Of a stretch of 32,432 nucleotides of DNA, positions 1 to 21,999 are shown piece after piece (positions within the stretch are counted from its first letter, which is position 1; the number at the start of each line of letters is the position of its first letter). Position numbers and translations under genes: made by a program. The stretch lies in NCBI GenBank assembly GCA_013152815.1, contig JAADFO010000046.1, positions 1 to 32,432 on the forward strand. Reading direction: 5' to 3'. The DNA is from Nanobdellati archaeon. GTDB lineage: Archaea > Nanobdellota > Nanobdellia > Woesearchaeales > JAADFO01. The notes below the pieces were generated by a model. It ran no database searches, was not told where the DNA came from, and saw only the letters and a list, made by a program, of their open reading frames with translations.

Positions 1-73
1 CATGAAGATGTCGAAGAAGAACGACCAGCAGAAGACCATCGATAAGATCAAAGAGATTCTAAGAAGAATCTAA
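1..73 (+). CDS. 3' end of an unidentified CDS (partial)
   Basis: The frame from position 2 reads ..MKMSKKNDQQKTIDKIKEILRRI* and stops at TAA 71-73. Confidence 0.55.
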   Translation, partial: MKMSKKNDQQKTIDKIKEILRRI

Positions 74-114
74 TGGAGCAAACCATTAAATATCCTCTTT
101 CTCGTTTCAAGAAA

Positions 115-387
115 ATGAGCGACAAACAATGGTGCTGCTACATCCTCGAGTGCCAGGACGATTCATTATACACAGGCATGACCAATGACATAGAAAGACG
201 GATGGCGGCCCACACGGCAGGCACCGGCTCAAAGTACGTCAGACAAAAAGGGTTCAGCAGGCTCCTCCATGTCATCAAAGCTGTCGACAAAGTAGACGCT
301 GCAAAGATGGAATATAGAATCAAACAATTGGAAAGAAATGAGAAGATAACCTTCTTCATCAACCATCCGAACCGGATCATTCCTTGA
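115..387 (+). CDS. GIY-YIG nuclease family protein (UPF0213/YazA-like); start could be 73
   Basis: WCCYILECQDDSLYTGMTNDIERRMAAH...GSKY...A.KME..IK is the typical small GIY-YIG pattern. Confidence 0.85.
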   Translation: MSDKQWCCYILECQDDSLYTGMTNDIERRMAAHTAGTGSKYVRQKGFSRLLHVIKAVDKVDAAKMEYRIKQLERNEKITFFINHPNRIIP

Positions 388-888: not shown

Positions 889-905
889 ATAGCCCCACCG
901 GGATT
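889..905 (-). repeat. Extra copy of the tRNA-Gln 3' end (16/17 identical to 981-997)
   Basis: atagccccaccGggatt (889-905) versus atagccccaccCggatt (981-997). Confidence 0.9.
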
Positions 906-981
906 GCTTTGCTGCCAGAAATTCAGCAGGATTTCTGAGCACGTTCGAACGCGGGCTGGGATAATACGTTCGAAGAACGTA

Positions 982-1099
982 TAGCCCCACCCGGATTCGA
1001 ACCGGGGTCCCGACCTGTCTCTCAACAGAGAGGCGCTCAGAAACACCTGCGTTTCTGTTGTCCAAAGGGTCGGATGATTGGCCGCTACACTATGGGGCT
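982..1099 (-). tRNA. tRNA-Gln(TTG) with a 45-nt canonical 37/38 intron (1017-1061); CCA not encoded
   Basis: Minus strand: AGCCCCA TAGTGTAGCGGCCAATCAT CCGACC CT-TTG-G [intron] A GGTCGG GAC CCCGG TTCGAAT CCGGG TGGGGCT A. Bulge-helix-bulge (BHB): CTTT/AGAG helix, GGA and ACA bulges, CAACAGA/TCTGTTG intron stem. Confidence 0.95.
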
Positions 1100-1200
1100 G
1101 TATGTTGGTACTGGGCTTGAGCCCTGTCGGGCGAAACCCCAGGCGGGCTCCAGAATCGCAAGAGCGAACCAACCGACAGGTTGGGAGCACATCTGGGGTT

Positions 1201-1218
1201 GCTACACTATGGGGCTGT
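1201..1218 (-). repeat. Extra copy of the tRNA-Gln 5' end (18/18 identical to 1084-1101)
   Basis: gctacactatggggctgt occurs at 1084-1101 and 1201-1218. It equals tRNA nt 1-16 plus 2 leader nt. Confidence 0.92.
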
Positions 1219-1247
1219 TCAGTAAGAAACCGAAGACGAAGAATCAG

Positions 1248-1263
1248 TATATAAAGCTTACCG
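1248..1263 (-). promoter_or_regulatory. BRE-TATA promoter for the tRNA-Gln unit
   Basis: Minus strand CGGTAAGC-TTTATATA, ~32 nt upstream of the outer 5' tRNA copy. No TATA box is seen directly upstream of the intact tRNA. Confidence 0.7.
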
Positions 1264-1265
1264 CT

Positions 1266-1859
1266 TCATTTCACTTTACGGGCATCAATAGCGAGGATTG
1301 CATTGAAGAGAGGGGATTGGTTCAGATACGTCAGGTAGTCGATCATCAGATGCTTATCGCTCTTACTGGGGAAATGGTTTGGCTGATGCTTGTCGCTTTC
1401 CTTGAGATTTGCCTTAGAATTCAACGAAACGCCCCGGGAGTTTCTGGAGACATAAAGATCCTTCGAGAGATCCTGGGGGTGTGAAGCATCATACTTCTTT
1501 CTGTCAGCCTTATCGATGACCACAGCATCTTCACGGTACGAAGCATATCTCCCATCAACATCGAACTCTGCAAGGGCCATAAGCCTAAGCAGATTTTTGT
1601 TATTCAACTGTCTGCTCGTCGCAGCATGATACATTCGGTCGTCTGTATGCGTCTCTGGTTTAGCAGTCACATCAAGCTTCAGGCTTGTAGCGTACTGGAG
1701 AAGTGTTTTAAGTCGGTCATCATAGGCAGCCCTGGCATGCATCACAGCAACAGCACCTTCACTGTGATAGCTCTTTTCAGTCCGCAAAGCACTCTCGGAG
1801 AGCAAGGCTTCCTGAAAATGATCACCAAATTCCCTGTCGATGATAGTGTTAATTGCCAT
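1266..1859 (-). CDS. Hypothetical protein (197 aa)
   Basis: Long ORF with a TTTATAAA box ~25 nt upstream of the ATG. No recognisable motif. Confidence 0.7.
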   Translation of the reverse strand: MAINTIIDREFGDHFQEALLSESALRTEKSYHSEGAVAVMHARAAYDDRLKTLLQYATSLKLDVTAKPETHTDDRMYHAATSRQLNNKNLLRLMALAEFDVDGRYASYREDAVVIDKADRKKYDASHPQDLSKDLYVSRNSRGVSLNSKANLKESDKHQPNHFPSKSDKHLMIDYLTYLNQSPLFNAILAIDARKVK

Positions 1860-2008: not shown

Positions 2009-2023
2009 AAGGTGGACTGAGTG

Positions 2024-2221
2024 ATGTTGAAGTTCAGCATACATGCGCGCGAACGAATGGCCCTGCGATGTATCAGCAAAGAGCAGATCAGAGAGGCCAT
2101 AAAACGAGGATCAAAACACCTCCAGAAACCGAATAAGATAGTATCGGAATACCGCTATTTCAGTGTGGTCTTCACCGTCCAGAAGGATTGCATATATGTA
2201 ATAACCGTACAAATAAGATGA
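2024..2221 (+). CDS. DUF4258-like (RelE/BrnT-fold) putative toxin
   Basis: FSIHARERMALRCIS.EQI.EAI..G and the C-terminal YVITV match the DUF4258 pattern. ATGA overlap with the next gene. Confidence 0.75.
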   Translation: MLKFSIHARERMALRCISKEQIREAIKRGSKHLQKPNKIVSEYRYFSVVFTVQKDCIYVITVQIR

Positions 2222-2595
2222 AACGCGAAAAAACTACCGGTTTTTTGCGTGATCAGAAATCTATCAGATTTCTGACATGCCCAACCTGCAACAAAGGCCA
2301 ATTGAAGAAAGGCAAGAGGAAAGAGATCATGTTCGGAGTAGACCTGGGAACCTATCCTGCAGAAATATGCGACCATTGTCACGAATCGTACACTGACGAG
2401 GAAACGACCGAGAAGATACTTCAAGCAGCGAAAGATAAAGGCATCTGGGGCCTTGGCAAACATACAAGGATCACAAGAAGCGGTAACTCTCTTGCGGTTC
2501 GCATACCAAAAAAACTCGCTGATTATTTAGGTCTGAAAGAAGGAATGGACACTTACATCCATCCAGAAGGAGATAAGATAATTCTAGAACACTAG
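2218..2595 (+). CDS. YgiT/MqsA-type zinc finger fused to an AbrB/MazE DNA-binding domain (putative antitoxin)
   Basis: CPTC...CDHC.E.Y zinc ribbon followed by ITRSGNSLAVRIPKKLADYLGLKEG (AbrB signature). Confidence 0.85.
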   Translation: MKREKTTGFLRDQKSIRFLTCPTCNKGQLKKGKRKEIMFGVDLGTYPAEICDHCHESYTDEETTEKILQAAKDKGIWGLGKHTRITRSGNSLAVRIPKKLADYLGLKEGMDTYIHPEGDKIILEH

Positions 2596-3350: not shown

Positions 3351-3395
3351 AGCAATAGCTCAACCGAGGGACTATAAAAGGATTACGAAGAAAAA

Positions 3396-3592
3396 GGCCA
3401 TTATGGAACCCTACAGAGAGATGCCAGATGCCTGCCCTACTCCATCGACGAGGACCCTCTACGATGCATAGGAACCCCGTCGATGTCGCCTGGCCCATGC
3501 CATCATTGTCCTCCTTTCAGTCGGAAATGCTGACAGTGATGGCACAGACGGTCATGCATCTGGCAGAAGAGCAGAGGGTTTCCATAATAGCC
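3396..3592. mobile_element. MITE (197 bp) with imperfect terminal inverted repeats and a 9-bp target-site duplication
   Basis: Ends are GGCCATTATGGAA...TTCCATAATAGCC. GAAGAAAAA directly abuts both ends (3387-3395 and 3593-3601). Subterminal inverted repeat TGCCAGATGC/GCATCTGGCA. No transposase. Confidence 0.8.
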
Positions 3593-3596
3593 GAAG

Positions 3597-3656
3597 AAAA
3601 AAGAAAAAAATGCCTCTGCTTTTCAGGTTTTGGGGGGTGATGAAAGAGCAGAGGCA
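3597..3656 (-). terminator. Hairpin plus T-tract downstream of ftsZ
   Basis: TGCCTCTGCT-TTTCA / TGAAA-G-AGCAGAGGCA stem (3611-3656), followed on the minus strand by TTTTTTTCTTTTTT. Confidence 0.55.
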
Positions 3657-8457: not shown

Positions 8458-8546
8458 TCAAGGGAATGGCTTTTCCCGCCAGGTAAGAAGAGGAGCGATC
8501 AGAAATTCCGTCGCCCGAAGCCCATCCCAAACAGGAACGTTTAAAA

Positions 8547-8963
8547 CTATGCTTTCCTGCTCTTGAGTTTAGGTAAGAGCATACTCACAAAGAGAATGAT
8601 CTCCTCTGCTTCTATCTTCAAGACTGTTTTCCCACGATAATTGATATCATTCCGTATCTGTCTATACCTATCGCTTCTCTCAAATTCGGACAGAGAAAGG
8701 ATTCCTTGCTCCTTTCCGAAAGCAAGGATGGCTTCATGAGAGTAGGGTTTGTATCCGGCTGCAGCCAAGAATGATTGCAGCACCTCTCTTAGGACCTCAT
8801 ATGCAGATTCAAACCGAAAAGGCGCAGTCTCCTCTGACAGCGGAAGGTTTTTCAGGTCTTTGAGCCTCGCTTCTGACTGCTTGAGAAGGGAGTCTGCTTC
8901 TGCAGGATCAGGAGAGATCTTCCTGACTTTCTTCTCTTCAAGATAGGCGGTAAATGACTTCAT
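8547..8963 (-). CDS. HEPN domain protein (putative toxin)
   Basis: Helical protein with AYE, SHE and RNDINY (R-x4-Y). It is coupled to the upstream MNT gene by an ATGA overlap. Confidence 0.75.
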   Translation of the reverse strand: MKSFTAYLEEKKVRKISPDPAEADSLLKQSEARLKDLKNLPLSEETAPFRFESAYEVLREVLQSFLAAAGYKPYSHEAILAFGKEQGILSLSEFERSDRYRQIRNDINYRGKTVLKIEAEEIILFVSMLLPKLKSRKA

Positions 8964-9541: not shown

Positions 9542-9644
9542 CGCCCCTGCCGAGATTTGAACTCGGGTTACAAGATGTTTGCAAGCCAGACAGAGGTTGT
9601 GGCTTCCGCAATCTCGCGTCCTATCCAGACTAGACTACAGGGGC
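9542..9644 (-). tRNA. tRNA-Arg(GCG) with a 29-nt 37/38 intron (9577-9605)
   Basis: GCCCCTG TAGTCTAGTCTGGATAGGACG CGAGA TT-GCG-G [intron] A TCTTG TAAC CCGAG TTCAAAT CTCGG CAGGGGC G. TTGC/GCAA BHB helix. Confidence 0.93.
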
Positions 9645-9699: not shown

Positions 9700-10623
9700 T
9701 CACCCCGATATCTTGTCAGAAAGGTTGTCAAGGGAGGCTTTCCCCCGCTTCTTTATCGTTGAGACCTTGGCCTTGACCCTTGGCCTATGGTAGGCGATGC
9801 CGTCCTTGATGGTGCGGACGGTCTTGGTCTTCAGGGTCGGCCTGAGATAGCGGAGGTGTTTCTGGGAAAGCGTCGCATAGGCAGGCAGCTTCATGAGGGT
9901 TGTGGTCGGCTTTCCCATGACAAGATTCTTCTTCCTGCGGATGGCATCGAGAAAGCTGCCCACCTCATCCGCCTCGCTGTAGGTGACCACCTTGCCGACC
10001 TCCATGAGGGTGTGGGCATCTGATCCGCCGTGGAAGGGCTTGCCGGTCTCCAGGGCGAGCTTGGTGGCGTTGAGGTTCATCTTCATCGTATGGGTGCCGC
10101 AGAGCACCTCGATGGAGTCCAGGGAGTCGAGGACCGACTCAGGGACATAGCCCCGCTTGATCCCTCTGACGATGCCCATGGGCGAGGGAGAGTAGGGATG
10201 GGCAGCAGCGATGATGGCGTTGAAGGAATGCCCCTGGTCGATGATCTCCTGGATGTGGCAGTTGGTGAACGCGTAGGGATTGGCGGTCTTCTTCTTCTCC
10301 ACATGCTTGAGGTAGAACGCCTCGAGATCATGATAATCATAGAAGTAGAAGAGGAGATGGGCCCGCTCGAAGGTGGTCAGTTCCATGCCGGGGATGATCA
10401 GGACGTCGGACTTTCGCGAGAGCGCGTCCTTGACCCCCTTCACTTCGTTGTGGTCGGTGATGGCCACGCCGAAGCCTTTCTTCCGGGCCTTGCGGAGGAG
10501 ATGGCCGACATGGGTGTAGGAGTCAGAGTATCGCGTATGGATATGCATGTCCACAGGATGATAGCCCTGGTCGGCCAGCGCCCGGTGGTCTGGCTTGAGA
10601 AAATCTATCCTTGAGTTGAGCAT
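9700..10623 (-). CDS. PHP-domain metal-dependent phosphoesterase (start may be 10647)
   Basis: DMHIHTRYSD, AITDHN, PGMELT, AHPY and GGSDAH motifs. Confidence 0.9.
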   Translation of the reverse strand: MLNSRIDFLKPDHRALADQGYHPVDMHIHTRYSDSYTHVGHLLRKARKKGFGVAITDHNEVKGVKDALSRKSDVLIIPGMELTTFERAHLLFYFYDYHDLEAFYLKHVEKKKTANPYAFTNCHIQEIIDQGHSFNAIIAAAHPYSPSPMGIVRGIKRGYVPESVLDSLDSIEVLCGTHTMKMNLNATKLALETGKPFHGGSDAHTLMEVGKVVTYSEADEVGSFLDAIRRKKNLVMGKPTTTLMKLPAYATLSQKHLRYLRPTLKTKTVRTIKDGIAYHRPRVKAKVSTIKKRGKASLDNLSDKISG

Positions 10624-19993: not shown

Positions 19994-20103
19994 TGTTCCC
20001 GCAGGTCCTTTTTTTCACTGCAGGAACATGCAGACATCAGTGAGATAACAGAACAGACTCAATCTAGTGAAGATAAAGATTAAAGACAGGAAGTGTGAAC
20101 ACC

Positions 20104-21999
20104 ATGGCAGATATCATCAAAGAGATACTCAAACAATTGCCGGCCAACAAGATCAGTGAAGCCTGCTTCGAGGCGGCAAATATCGTGCTGTACACCACGG
20201 ACAAGGAATTCTTCCTCAACAACGAGGGACTCATCAAGAAGGTGGTCGATTCCATCAAGAAAAGGGTCGAACTGCGGCCTGACCCCTCCATCACCCTGGA
20301 CCCGGAGAAGGCAGAGGAGATCATCAAGAAGACCCTCCCCGAAGAGGCCAAGGCATCGCAGGTCATCTTCGACCCCCAGCGTTCCATCGTCATCATCGAG
20401 GCAGAGAAGCCGGGCCTGGCCATCGGGAAGCAGGGAGCGAACCTGCGCCATATCAGGGAGAAGACCCTCTGGGTGCCGCTCATCAAGAGGACGCCTGCCA
20501 TCAGGAGCATCCTCATCGAGAACGTGAGATCGGTGCTCTATCAGAATTCAGACTACCGCAGGAAGTTCCTCGACAAGGTCGGCCACCGCATCTATGACGG
20601 CTGGATCCGCGAGAAGAAGAAGGAATGGGTGAGGCTCTCCATGCTTGGCTCCGGACGCCAGGTGGGACGAAGCTCCATGCTCCTGCAGACGCCTGAATCC
20701 CGGGTGCTCCTTGACTGCGGGGTGGACGTGGCCTCCAACGACGACAATGCCTATCCTTTCCTCGAAGCGCCTGAGTTCTCCATCAAAGAGCTCGACGCGG
20801 TCATCATCTCCCATGCCCATCTCGACCACGTCGGATTCCTCCCCTATCTCATCAAATACGGCTACAGAGGCCCCATCTATTGCACAGAACCGACCCGGGA
20901 CATCATGTCCCTGCTCCTCCTGGATTTCATCAAGATCATGCGGGGAGAGGGGAAAGAGCCCCTGTTCACGTCGGATGAGATCAAGGAGATGGTGAAGCAG
21001 ACCATCACCCTGAGCTACAAGGAAGTCACCGACATCACGCCGGACATCAGGATCACGCTCTACAATTCAGGTCATATCATCGGAAGCTCCATGGTACACA
21101 TCCACATCGGGAACGGCCTCCACAACCTGGTCTACGGAGCAGACATGAAATATGGAAGGACTGCCCTCCTCGACCCTGCGGAGACCCAGTTCCCCCGCTG
21201 CGAGACCTTCATCCTGGAATCGACCTACGGCGGCAGGGACAATGTGCTGCCGTCGAGGAAGGACTGCGAGAAGCAGCTCGCCGACTCCATCATGCGGGCC
21301 ATCAAGCGGAGAGGGAGGGTGCTCATCCCGGTCCTGGGAGTCGGCAGGGCACAGGAGGTCTTCCTCATCGTCGAGGATCTCATCCGCACCGGAAAGATGG
21401 AGAAAGTTCCTGTCTATATCGACGGCATGATCTGGGACGTGACTGCCATCCACACGGCCTATCCAGAATACCTCAACGCTGCCGTCCGCAAGAAGATCTT
21501 CCACAAGAACGAGAACCCGTTCCTGTCGGACATCTTCAAGAGGATCGGGTCTGCGAAGGAACGGCGCATGGTCATCGAGGAGAGCACCCCGTTCATCGTC
21601 CTGGCCACATCCGGCATGCTCCAGGGCGGCCCTTCGGTGGAGTACCTCAAGGCCTTCGCGAGCTCTGAACGCAACGCGCTCATCTTCGTCGCCTACCAGG
21701 GAGCAGGCTCTCTGGGACGGAGGATCCAGCAGGGAGACCGTGAGATAGCGTTCCAGAAGGGCCATGCTCAGGAGGTCATCGGGATCAAGCTTGAACTCAC
21801 CACCATCGACGGCCTGACCGGCCATTCAGGACGAGGGGAGCTCATGAACTTCGTCCATAAATGCGACCCCCGGCCCAAGAAGATCATCATCAACCACGGC
21901 GAGAATTCCCGCTGCCTCGACCTCGCGAGCTCGTTGCACAAGACCTACCGGCTCGAGACCGTCGCTCCGAGGAACCTCGAGGTCGTCAGGTTGAAGTGA
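20104..21999 (+). CDS. fttA: aCPSF1/FttA beta-CASP ribonuclease with KH domains
   Basis: KPGLAIGKQG KH motif; SHAHLDH, GHIIGS, ESTYG, GRAQE, TSGML and HGE motifs. Follows psmB, as in many archaea. Confidence 0.95.
   Translation: MADIIKEILKQLPANKISEACFEAANIVLYTTDKEFFLNNEGLIKKVVDSIKKRVELRPDPSITLDPEKAEEIIKKTLPEEAKASQVIFDPQRSIVIIEAEKPGLAIGKQGANLRHIREKTLWVPLIKRTPAIRSILIENVRSVLYQNSDYRRKFLDKVGHRIYDGWIREKKKEWVRLSMLGSGRQVGRSSMLLQTPESRVLLDCGVDVASNDDNAYPFLEAPEFSIKELDAVIISHAHLDHVGFLPYLIKYGYRGPIYCTEPTRDIMSLLLLDFIKIMRGEGKEPLFTSDEIKEMVKQTITLSYKEVTDITPDIRITLYNSGHIIGSSMVHIHIGNGLHNLVYGADMKYGRTALLDPAETQFPRCETFILESTYGGRDNVLPSRKDCEKQLADSIMRAIKRRGRVLIPVLGVGRAQEVFLIVEDLIRTGKMEKVPVYIDGMIWDVTAIHTAYPEYLNAAVRKKIFHKNENPFLSDIFKRIGSAKERRMVIEESTPFIVLATSGMLQGGPSVEYLKAFASSERNALIFVAYQGAGSLGRRIQQGDREIAFQKGHAQEVIGIKLELTTIDGLTGHSGRGELMNFVHKCDPRPKKIIINHGENSRCLDLASSLHKTYRLETVAPRNLEVVRLK

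What the first reader, a model, noticed from the sequence alone, without database searches (positions are those of the whole stretch)
889..1263. Nested tRNA-Gln: intact gene enclosed by a second 5' end and a second 3' end
Seen: tRNA nt 1-16 are duplicated perfectly 117 nt upstream, and the last ~16 nt are duplicated 92 nt downstream with one mismatch. The outer copies can form their own acceptor stem (AGCCCCA/TGGGGCT+A) around the inner tRNA. The only TATA box sits upstream of the outer copy, so the primary transcript would be ~330 nt. Known: integrase att sites usually duplicate only one tRNA end, and split tRNAs (Nanoarchaeum, Caldivirga) use complementary leaders. Inference: this could be a tRNA-in-tRNA precursor, split exons of a second Gln isoacceptor, tRNA-mimic processing signals that release small RNAs, or a relic of an insertion into an older tRNA-Gln.
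Basis: partly seen in the sequence, partly recalled or inferred. Interest (0 to 1): 0.82.

Follow-up and report, generated by a model that had tools for sequence, protein, structure and literature searches.

The report
Hairpin inserts duplicating both tRNA ends
A glutamine tRNA gene of a small archaeon looks nested only because two different gene-less hairpin inserts sit at its two ends, each beside a spare copy of that end, and relatives of one insert lie inside other tRNA genes as introns, which hints at how archaeal tRNA introns arise.

Summary
The repeats are real. An 18-nt exact copy of the tRNA-Gln(TTG) 5' end lies 117 nt upstream, and a 16-nt copy of its 3' end (one mismatch) lies 92 nt downstream. 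The nested or split-tRNA reading is not supported. The inner gene has an ordinary 37/38 intron. A full tRNA-Gln(CTG) gene exists elsewhere with the same layout. Neither outer insert has a splicing (BHB) motif, and the outer copies are the ones that lose pairing. The two inserts belong to repeat families. 19 of 36 tRNAs of this genome carry their own 3' end again behind an insert. The upstream insert (hairpin plus covarying dual stem) occurs in 36 of 161 genomes of the order. It lies behind tRNAs with a 3' copy, before tRNAs with a 5' copy, at non-tRNA sites with direct repeats, and inside tRNAs as BHB-flanked introns. Best reading: two independent insertions of non-autonomous single-stranded-DNA hairpin elements with target-derived duplications. 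No moving enzyme was found (Y1 transposase, RT, TnpB and Cas1 do not co-occur). The closest known case is the E. coli tRNA-linked repeats.

The parts
1248..1255 (-). TATA-like box, the likely original promoter, in front of the outer 5' copy
   Evidence: only TATA-like match in 1320-1051; the Gln(CTG) paralog also has its TATA-like box in front of the outer copy; function inferred
1201..1218 (-). outer copy of tRNA nt -2 to 16; reads on to 1197 with the D-loop GG replaced by AA
1111..1196 (+). element A, antisense to the tRNA: hairpin 1111-1142 with a CUYGA/GARA internal loop, then a dual-stem module (P1 1143-1146/1156-1159, P2 1150-1154/1192-1196, inserted GNRA-capped hairpin)
   Evidence: homologs behind G000 tRNA-Cys (C60), -Leu (C30), -Val (C71); matches the family pattern; stems read from the sequence, family covariation
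1102..1110 (+). linker between the inner 5' end and element A
   Evidence: sequence; in the C53 paralog the linker resembles the original leader
982..1099 (-). functional tRNA-Gln(TTG) gene: exons 1099-1062 and 1016-982, anticodon 1065-1063
   Evidence: ARAGORN with introns; Rfam RF00005 41.2 bits
1017..1061 (-). 45-nt canonical 37/38 intron with strict BHB; contains a stem like the small hairpin unit
   Evidence: near-identical in the Gln(CTG) gene
965..981 (-). trailer fold-back hairpin at the start of insert B
   Evidence: compensatory change in the C53 paralog
943..963 (-). degenerate inverted copy of the tRNA's own nt 53-73
   Evidence: I10; 16 of 21 Watson-Crick, and 1 of 26 other tRNA arms scored as well
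913..941 (-). small hairpin unit, also found inside a MITE, in IS605-like ends and in other tRNA inserts
   Evidence: present/absent polymorphism among MITE copies
889..905 (-). outer copy of tRNA nt 58-73 plus one base; G63C would break the T-stem; reads on to 882 at 88%

Best explanation
The locus is one ordinary intron-containing tRNA-Gln(TTG) gene hit by two independent insertions of gene-less hairpin elements. SHOWN: element A sits antisense at the D-loop with a copy of nt 1-16(20). Insert B sits behind the gene as trailer hairpin, inverted own T-arm, small hairpin unit, then a copy of nt 58-73. Each copy has the host gene's own sequence, the inner copy keeps the pairing, and both inserts recur at other tRNAs. 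INFERRED (about 0.45 for this step): the elements move as folded single-stranded DNA and enter at loops of folded target strands (tRNA D-, anticodon and T-loops, MITE hairpin loops), probably at the replication fork. Synthesis resumes a variable distance back, giving 0 to ~50 nt of target duplication, and in class B a fold-back copy. Only insertions that leave a working gene survive. Those that re-copy the gene end give the flanking repeats; those without duplication survive when exon and insert form a BHB, and become tRNA introns. The tRNA would be made from the old promoter with a ~125-nt leader trimmed by RNase P, with the intron cut by EndA (both genes present; processing inferred). The enzyme is unidentified.
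For: 19 of 36 G000 tRNAs have nt 61-72 repeated downstream with <=2 mismatches (n). By local score >=11: 16 of 36 versus 0 of 36 in the control; G003 8 of 29, G001 1 of 16, G002 1 of 14, other order loci 2 of 25. Where copies differ, the inner base pairs in 28 of 28 and the outer fails in 22 of 28; 14 of the 28 are at boundary position 61, and of the 14 internal ones 8 break and 6 become G-U. Shared insert bodies lie behind different tRNAs. The element A pattern gave 72 loci in GTDB, nearly all labelled Woesearchaeota, Nanoarchaeota or archaeon. It is in 36 of 161 order genomes against 1 control hit. A flanking direct repeat >=11 was seen in 31 of 74 versus 11 of 726 controls, including non-tRNA sites, with lengths to ~55 nt. 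Polarity over 134 elements: sense copies at the T-arm have a duplication in 13 of 14; antisense copies at the anticodon arm or T-arm lack one in 20 of 21 (automatic and imperfect). About 11 of 30 hand-picked intragenic copies splice out at a BHB at 37/38, 59/60 or the D-arm. Empty versus filled MITE copies show that the small unit and an A-like module are inserted. Loops are mostly C(GAA)G 50, C(AAA)G 18, C(GTA)G 8 of 134; that such loops are DNA-type is recalled. Inverted copies show G-U 10 and A-C 10, no RNA-strand bias. RNase P RNA and EndA are present in 4 of 4 family genomes.
Against: No mobilising enzyme was found. Among the 36 A-positive genomes, Y1 transposase is in 11 (47 of 125 negatives; Fisher p 0.56), RT in 2 (32 of 125), TnpB in 0 and Cas1 in 1. 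No transposase, RT or integrase was among 109 neighbouring proteins (109 of 254 ORFs; one LAGLIDADG). No same-genus genome exists to show an empty allele of this exact locus. In a 2D equilibrium model of the full precursor the inverted copy sequesters the inner T-arm (p 0.997) and the acceptor stem forms with the outer 3' copy (0.60 inner-outer, 0.26 outer-outer). The inner cloverleaf is ~16 kcal/mol worse, so the precursor must fold co-transcriptionally, terminate early or be trimmed fast; this is not shown. P1 of element A shows many G-U pairs on one strand, which fits RNA as well as DNA. 60 of 134 elements had neither a tRNA match nor a duplication.
Confidence: 0.75

Rival explanations
1. 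The outer copies are kept as processing signals or a folding switch: the precursor is cut at the tRNA-like ends and releases structured small RNAs, as proposed for E. coli TLR-derived sRNAs. Compatible with an insertion origin.
For: The inserts lie in the tRNA transcription unit. The dual stem of element A covaries (58 cells changed on both sides versus 22.5 shuffled, 0 of 500, on 31 of 134 copies chosen for having the stems). The trailer hairpin has a compensatory change between the two Gln loci. TLR repeats are suggested to be RNase E sites (PMC8144298, passages).
Against: Element A is antisense in the window's transcript but sense behind other tRNAs. Outer copies decay, and the T-loop TTC is kept in 4 of 33. 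Presence is patchy: G003 tRNA-Gln(TTG) has neither copy, and G002 has a different 5' insert. No G-U excess in the inverted copies.
Confidence: 0.1
2. Retro-insertion: element RNA is reverse transcribed at a nick in the tRNA gene (target-primed), giving a fixed 3' junction and variable target duplications.
For: The element's 3' end abuts the duplication closely (T-arm 54-59, D-arm about 15-21), while the 5' side is variable. Duplication length varies.
Against: RVT_1 was found in 0 of 4 family genomes and in 2 of 36 A-positive genomes versus 32 of 125 negatives (kin are not independent). The pattern was in 0 viral contigs. This route does not explain class B's fold-back copy.
Confidence: 0.07
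3. Collapsed integrase islands: attL/attR remnants of elements that once integrated at the tRNA 5' or 3' end.
For: tRNA ends are classic att sites, and partial tRNA copies flank archaeal islands of 9-23 kb (PMC9897764, passages).
Against: The same insert body sits at many isotypes, each with the host's own end. It also occurs without any duplication, and at non-tRNA sites. G000 has 1 tyrosine-recombinase hit, not beside the locus.
Confidence: 0.04
4. One reading: the outer pieces are exons of a second tRNA-Gln, or the outer stem is the processed substrate.
For: The outer stem is favoured in 2D folding of the whole precursor. The promoter lies in front of the outer copy.
Against: A full Gln(CTG) gene is present. 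No BHB at 0 of 52 registers. The outer 3' copy breaks the T-stem and lacks TTC; the outer 5' copy lacks the D-loop GG. Double-ended genes occur at about the rate expected from two independent events.
Confidence: 0.03
5. Assembly artefact.
For: Metagenome-type assembly in 76 contigs; some repeat copies elsewhere contain N runs; no reads were available.
Against: The copies differ from each other. A paralogous locus has the same layout with diverged inserts, and the families recur across many genomes.
Confidence: 0.01

Closest known systems
E. coli tRNA-linked repeats (TLRs; tyrT/RtT, rrA/B/F) (PMC8144298, passages read)
   Same: Short non-coding units in a tRNA transcription unit that end in a copy of the 3' end of the gene just upstream (18-19 bp there; 12-24 nt here); tandem copies occur; origin unexplained.
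   Different: Archaeal; also duplicates 5' ends (antisense orientation); the same body also occurs as introns and at non-tRNA sites; class B adds an inverted copy of the host arm. No Rfam hit to RtT or any other family at the inserts.
att-site duplications of integrative elements in archaeal tRNA genes (PMC9897764, passages)
   Same: A complete gene plus a partial copy of one end around foreign DNA.
   Different: Inserts of 45-150 nt with no integrase; the duplicated piece is host-specific for each isotype while the body is shared; forms without duplication exist.
Casposons (PMC5137440, passages)
   Same: Target at the tRNA T-loop region; target-derived direct duplication of about 15 bp.
   Different: No terminal inverted repeats; variable duplication (0 to ~55 nt); Cas1 in 1 of 36 carrier genomes and not in G000.
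Non-autonomous palindromic elements: MITEs, Rickettsia palindromic elements (PMC10969869, passages); REP/RAYT and IS200/IS605 PATEs (recalled); mitochondrial double-hairpin and GC-cluster elements (search listing only)
   Same: Small, gene-less, multicopy, hairpin-forming, nested in other repeats and in RNA genes.
   Different: No TIRs or fixed TSD; strong bias to tRNA loops; no association with Y1 transposase.
tRNA intron transposition in Thermoproteales (as described in PMC4033280 and 10.64898/2026.10.13.758758, passages)
   Same: Related sequences occur as introns at different positions of different tRNAs.
   Different: Here the same sequence also exists outside introns, as flanking inserts with duplications and at non-tRNA sites, so a free mobile form is visible.

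Membership tests
Split / nested (trans-spliced) archaeal tRNA | isoacceptor lacks a full-length gene | tested here: not met
   full Gln(TTG) and Gln(CTG) genes
Split / nested (trans-spliced) archaeal tRNA | BHB at the exon junctions | tested here: not met
   0 of 26 and 0 of 26 registers; control intron 4 bp + 7 + 7; relaxed motifs beyond this test not modelled
tRNA-linked repeat (TLR-like) | unit ends in a copy of the upstream gene's own 3' end | tested here: met
tRNA-linked repeat (TLR-like) | sequence homology to E. coli TLR/RtT | tested here: not met
   no Rfam match over 700-1500 except tRNA and two sub-threshold hits; the non-Rfam TLRs were not compared
tRNA-linked repeat (TLR-like) | transcribed and processed to a small RNA | not testable with these tools
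   no run listed
MITE | terminal inverted repeats | tested here: not met
   none at the ends of A or B, unlike two true MITE families in the same genome
MITE | fixed-length target-site duplication | tested here: not met
   0 to ~55 nt
Integrase island att sites | integrase gene between the repeats | tested here: not met
   inserts 99 and 75 nt; no real gene
Casposon | Cas1 solo and TIRs | tested here: not met
REP/PATE (Y1 HUH-moved) | co-occurrence with, or flanking of, a Y1 transposase gene | tested here: inconclusive
   no co-occurrence (11 of 36 versus 47 of 125, p 0.56); the full A hairpin was not seen in the flanks of 8 Y1 loci read; a similar mini-hairpin core lies at the left end of 3 of 38; G000 has one Y1 gene with an internal stop
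Retroelement (TPRT) | reverse transcriptase available in the host | tested here: not met
   0 of 4 family genomes, 2 of 36 carriers; an RT supplied by a virus or too diverged for RVT_1 is not excluded
Archaeal tRNA intron (element A copies inside tRNAs of other genomes) | BHB at the boundaries, and removal restores a tRNA | tested here: met
   about 11 of 30 chosen copies at 37/38, 59/60 or the D-arm; 6 ambiguous, 13 none; no null model run

The most novel reading that the evidence does not exclude
A class of gene-less single-stranded-DNA hairpin elements moves by an undescribed host-encoded route (no transposase, RT or integrase of its own) and inserts at loops of folded DNA strands. It is a direct, ongoing source of new archaeal tRNA introns. 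End duplications like those in this window and introns are two surviving outcomes of one insertion reaction.
Probability: 0.4. Interest if true: 0.87.

Novelty: new variant of a known kind. Interest (0 to 1): 0.66.

Why it matters
How archaeal tRNA introns arrive is an open question. A 2026 preprint on Asgard archaea tested copying, mobile elements and reverse transcription and found no general route (10.64898/2026.10.13.758758, abstract and passages). Here one recognisable ~55-100 nt element is seen in four states: intron, 5' duplication, 3' duplication and non-tRNA insert. That makes the route testable with population reads and in vitro assays. It also offers a parallel for the unexplained E. 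coli TLRs. Practically, these inserts hide tRNA genes from standard callers (find_trnas found 0 genes in the window), which may bear on 'missing' tRNAs reported for this group. The window itself is one instance of a family that earlier notes of this scan met many times.

Tried and rejected
Rfam: no ribozyme, riboswitch or RtT hit at the inserts; resemblances to hammerhead, twister, HDV-like, k-turn and group II domain V cores were judged by eye from memory and dropped. A sequencing-run search listed none, so no reads were laid; this is no evidence either way. RNase P loss as a reason for special ends was rejected: RNase P RNA in 4 of 4, HARP in 0 of 4. Viral origin: pattern in 0 viral contigs. 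Enzyme candidates Y1_Tnp, RVT_1, TnpB, Cas1 and tyrosine integrase gave no link. Neighbour genes of 72 loci: no recurring family (largest cluster 3 of 254 ORFs). A HUH-motif regex over 1306 G000 ORFs printed no hit. A simultaneous pseudoknot in the short A forms is doubtful, since the third loop is 0-2 nt in 40 of 71; I call it a dual-stem module. RNA-level selection on the inverted copy was not supported. The first ARAGORN run at relaxed threshold gave mostly noise and was cut. Literature searches found no description of this family. The library lacks most subscription papers, and bioRxiv supplements were not seen.

Full report
OBSERVATION. The repeats are as described. Window 1218-1201 equals 1101-1084 (18 nt, spacing 117), and 905-890 matches 997-982 with one mismatch (spacing 92; 24 nt at 88%). 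The gene between them is tRNA-Gln(TTG), minus strand 1099-982. It is not uninterrupted: it has a 45-nt intron at 37/38 with a strict bulge-helix-bulge (BHB) motif, 4 bp plus 7 and 7 flanking pairs. The default tRNA scan missed it. The only TATA-like box on the minus strand in 1320-1051 is 1255-1248, in front of the outer copy. The neighbours are a cyclophilin gene downstream and an unassigned 197-aa ORF upstream. The host is a 1.49-Mb archaeon. Records sharing its motif are mostly labelled Woesearchaeota or Nanoarchaeota, so I infer that lineage; I did not test it with a marker tree.

NOT A SPLIT OR NESTED tRNA. A full tRNA-Gln(CTG) gene lies on contig C53 with a near-identical intron. It too has a 5' copy (147 nt upstream, different insert body, same end motif) and a 3' copy (homologous insert). 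Each copy carries that gene's own bases, not those of the TTG gene. Neither outer insert of the window forms a BHB in any of 26 + 26 registers; three registers give a 4-bp helix, with at most 1 + 2 flanking pairs. The outer 3' copy has C at 63, which would break the T-stem, and lacks the TTC of the T-loop. The outer 5' copy has AA for the D-loop GG. Across 33 tRNAs with a 3' copy in this genome and relatives, the inner base pairs at all 28 differing positions and the outer fails at 22. 14 of the 28 are position 61, the edge of the copy; of the 14 internal ones 8 break and 6 become G-U. TTC is kept in 4 of 33. In a 2D equilibrium model of the whole precursor, the inverted copy in the downstream insert captures the inner T-arm (p 0.997). 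The acceptor stem then forms with the outer 3' copy (0.60 inner-outer, 0.26 outer-outer), about 16 kcal/mol better than the inner cloverleaf. The model has no tertiary terms or kinetics, but the precursor's folding is a real open point.

A GENOME-WIDE PATTERN. In this genome 19 of 36 tRNAs repeat nt 61-72 downstream with at most 2 mismatches. By a local score of 11 or more the count is 16 of 36, against 0 of 36 in wrong-side controls. Relatives give 8 of 29 (G003), 1 of 16 (G001), 1 of 14 (G002) and 2 of 25 (other order loci). These n are tRNAs with 150 nt of flank that passed a T-loop filter; for relatives at most 30 loci per genome were fetched. 5' copies scored in 4 of 36, of which 3 are clean (both Gln genes and the C34 gene) and one is a decayed near-full copy. 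Two independent events then predict about 1.6 double-ended genes; 3 are seen. G003's tRNA-Gln(TTG) has neither copy, and G002's has a 26-nt 5' copy around a different insert.

ELEMENT A (upstream insert). Read on the + strand it is a hairpin with a CUYGA/GARA internal loop (1111-1142), followed by two interlocking stems that end exactly where the duplicated tRNA sequence begins. Homologs lie in sense behind tRNA-Cys, -Leu, -Val and -Tyr of this genome, each followed by that tRNA's own 3' end. An exact 23-base pattern found 72 loci in GTDB, 3 of them with bacterial labels. It found 96 stretches in metagenomes (80 fetched) and 0 in viral contigs. A relaxed pattern is in 36 of 161 genomes of the order against 1 control hit (one of the 36 is G134, flagged unpublished; without it 35 of 160). 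Scan loci partly overlap the family-level loci, so these counts are not additive. Of 74 GTDB copies, 31 have a flanking direct repeat (score 11 or more) against 11 of 726 mismatched controls. These include non-tRNA sites; some appear to be protein-gene ends and reach 25-55 nt. The dual stem scores 9 or more in 54 of 130 copies against 22 of 390 shuffles. On 31 copies chosen for having it, all 6 P2 pairs and 4 of 5 P1 pairs change on both sides (58 cells against 22.5 shuffled, 0 of 500). The selection and the kinship of copies inflate this, and the hairpin is invariant by construction. The third loop is 0-2 nt in 40 of 71, too short for a true pseudoknot, so the stems may alternate.

THE SAME ELEMENT AS AN INTRON. 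An automatic placement of 134 distinct copies gave: sense at the T-arm, 13 with duplication and 1 without; sense at the 5' end, 1; antisense at the D-arm, 10 with and 4 without; antisense at the anticodon arm, 1 with and 13 without; antisense at the T-arm, 7 without; no tRNA match, 24 with and 60 without. Some positions are extrapolated wrongly, and some tRNA cases fell in the last class. For 30 hand-picked intragenic copies, a BHB whose removal gave an ARAGORN tRNA was found in 17. About 11 of these are at credible sites: 37/38 in L121, L243, L136, L337, L338, L115; 59/60 in L123, L168, L322, L327; the D-arm in L131 (no null model). All intron-type copies seen are antisense, like the window's copy.

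INSERT B (downstream). It reads: trailer hairpin, inverted degenerate copy of the host's nt 53-73, a 29-nt hairpin unit, then the direct copy. Homologs follow Gln(CTG), three Val, two Glu and Ser(TGA) genes, and a shorter class starts its copy at nt 62. The inverted piece fits its own tRNA best: 16 of 21 Watson-Crick here, and 1 of 26 other arms scored as well. Over 12 such inserts (of 29 examined) G-U and A-C mismatches are equal at 10 and 10, so there is no sign of RNA-strand selection. The small unit is shown to be an insertion: 8 copies of a 230-nt MITE carry it, one carries two related units in tandem, and the window's own copy (3382-3611) and two others lack it. A second MITE family has an A-like module inserted in a hairpin loop, with empty copies alongside.

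MECHANISM. Shown: target-derived, variable duplications; shared bodies; nesting in hairpin loops; decay of the outer copies. Inferred: the elements act as folded single-stranded DNA. Their loops are mostly C(GAA)G, C(AAA)G and C(GTA)G (76 of 134), which I recall as DNA-type mini-hairpins. They would enter at loops of folded target strands, most simply at the fork by strand transfer or template switching, with synthesis resuming 0-50 nt back. Selection keeps what leaves a working gene: re-copying of the gene end, or a spliceable BHB. RNase P RNA and EndA are present in 4 of 4 family genomes and HARP in 0 of 4, so a long leader can be trimmed. I found no enzyme. Among the 36 carriers, Y1 transposase is in 11 (47 of 125 others, p 0.56), RT in 2 (32 of 125), TnpB in 0 and Cas1 in 1. 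Genomes are incomplete, kin are not independent, and the pattern under-counts carriers. No transposase, RT or integrase lay among 109 of 254 neighbouring ORFs. I put 0.75 on the two-insertion reading and about 0.45 on the ssDNA route within it.

COMPARISON. The closest known case is the E. coli TLR family, whose units end in 18-19 bp of the upstream gene's 3' end and have no known origin (PMC8144298, passages). Integrase att sites (PMC9897764, passages), casposons (PMC5137440, passages) and MITEs or RPEs (PMC10969869, passages) each fail a defining test. Intron transposition is described for Thermoproteales (PMC4033280, passages). A preprint on Asgard tRNAs leaves the route of intron arrival open (10.64898/2026.10.13.758758, abstract and passages). 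Passages of 10.64898/2026.05.13.725050, PMC12558985 and 10.64898/2026.09.22.753630 did not mention these inserts. Nine searches found no description; subscription papers and preprint supplements were not seen. Earlier AI notes of this scan (59 findings) describe what appears to be the same family in other genomes. They are leads, not independent support, and I saw them after forming this reading.

VERDICT. The repeats are real, but not a nested tRNA. They mark a chance double hit by an apparently undescribed family of tRNA-targeting hairpin elements that also forms tRNA introns. New variant of a known kind; interest 0.66.

Noticed in passing
window 3382-3611: One copy of a ~230-nt MITE (terminal inverted repeats, 8-10 bp direct repeats; about 14 copies in the genome); this copy lacks the small hairpin unit that 8 others carry.
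   Followed up: partly
window 9542-9644 (-): tRNA-Arg(GCG) with a 29-nt intron and no end duplication.
   Followed up: partly
window 73-387 (+); 2021-2595 (+); 20095-21999 (+): GIY-YIG nuclease gene next to the cyclophilin; a DUF4258 / MazE-like gene pair; an FttA-like beta-CASP gene. No link to the inserts was tested.
   Followed up: no
window 1266-1859 (-): 197-aa ORF with no Pfam match ending just before the tRNA promoter.
   Followed up: no
G000:C2:4788-5112, C2:31671-31979, C12:2620-2927, C75:7898-8197, C43:14123-14309, C58:12055-12229, C44:48610-49019: Second MITE family (190-310 bp) with empty and filled forms; at C44 it lies directly beside a copy of the first MITE. No transposase for either family was identified.
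   Followed up: partly
G000:C12:13268-13378, C20:1183-1433, C43:16688-16879, C51:32126-32370: Gene-less cassettes resembling IS200/IS605 ends (resemblance recalled, and compared with Y1 loci), some with hairpin units inserted in their loops.
   Followed up: partly
G000:C57:13796-14179 (-): RNase P RNA match of 384 nt versus 320-349 nt in three relatives, with extra segments.
   Followed up: partly
G000:C4 upstream of 9732-9817 (-): A decayed near-full copy of tRNA-Ser(CGA) with a hairpin unit lies directly upstream of the gene.
   Followed up: no
G000:C48:27981-52739: An ORF of 8253 aa with internal repeats.
   Followed up: no
L039:1446 (+), L053:1729 (-): Element A in sense directly between promoter and tRNA 5' end, its last stem overlapping the tRNA's first bases, without duplication.
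   Followed up: partly
L342 (G001:C159, about 8540-8610): Orphan tRNA-Gln 3' fragment followed by a B-like insert, with no full tRNA in front.
   Followed up: partly
L128, L133: Element A just upstream of a cysteinyl-tRNA synthetase gene in L133 and apparently the same gene in L128.
   Followed up: no
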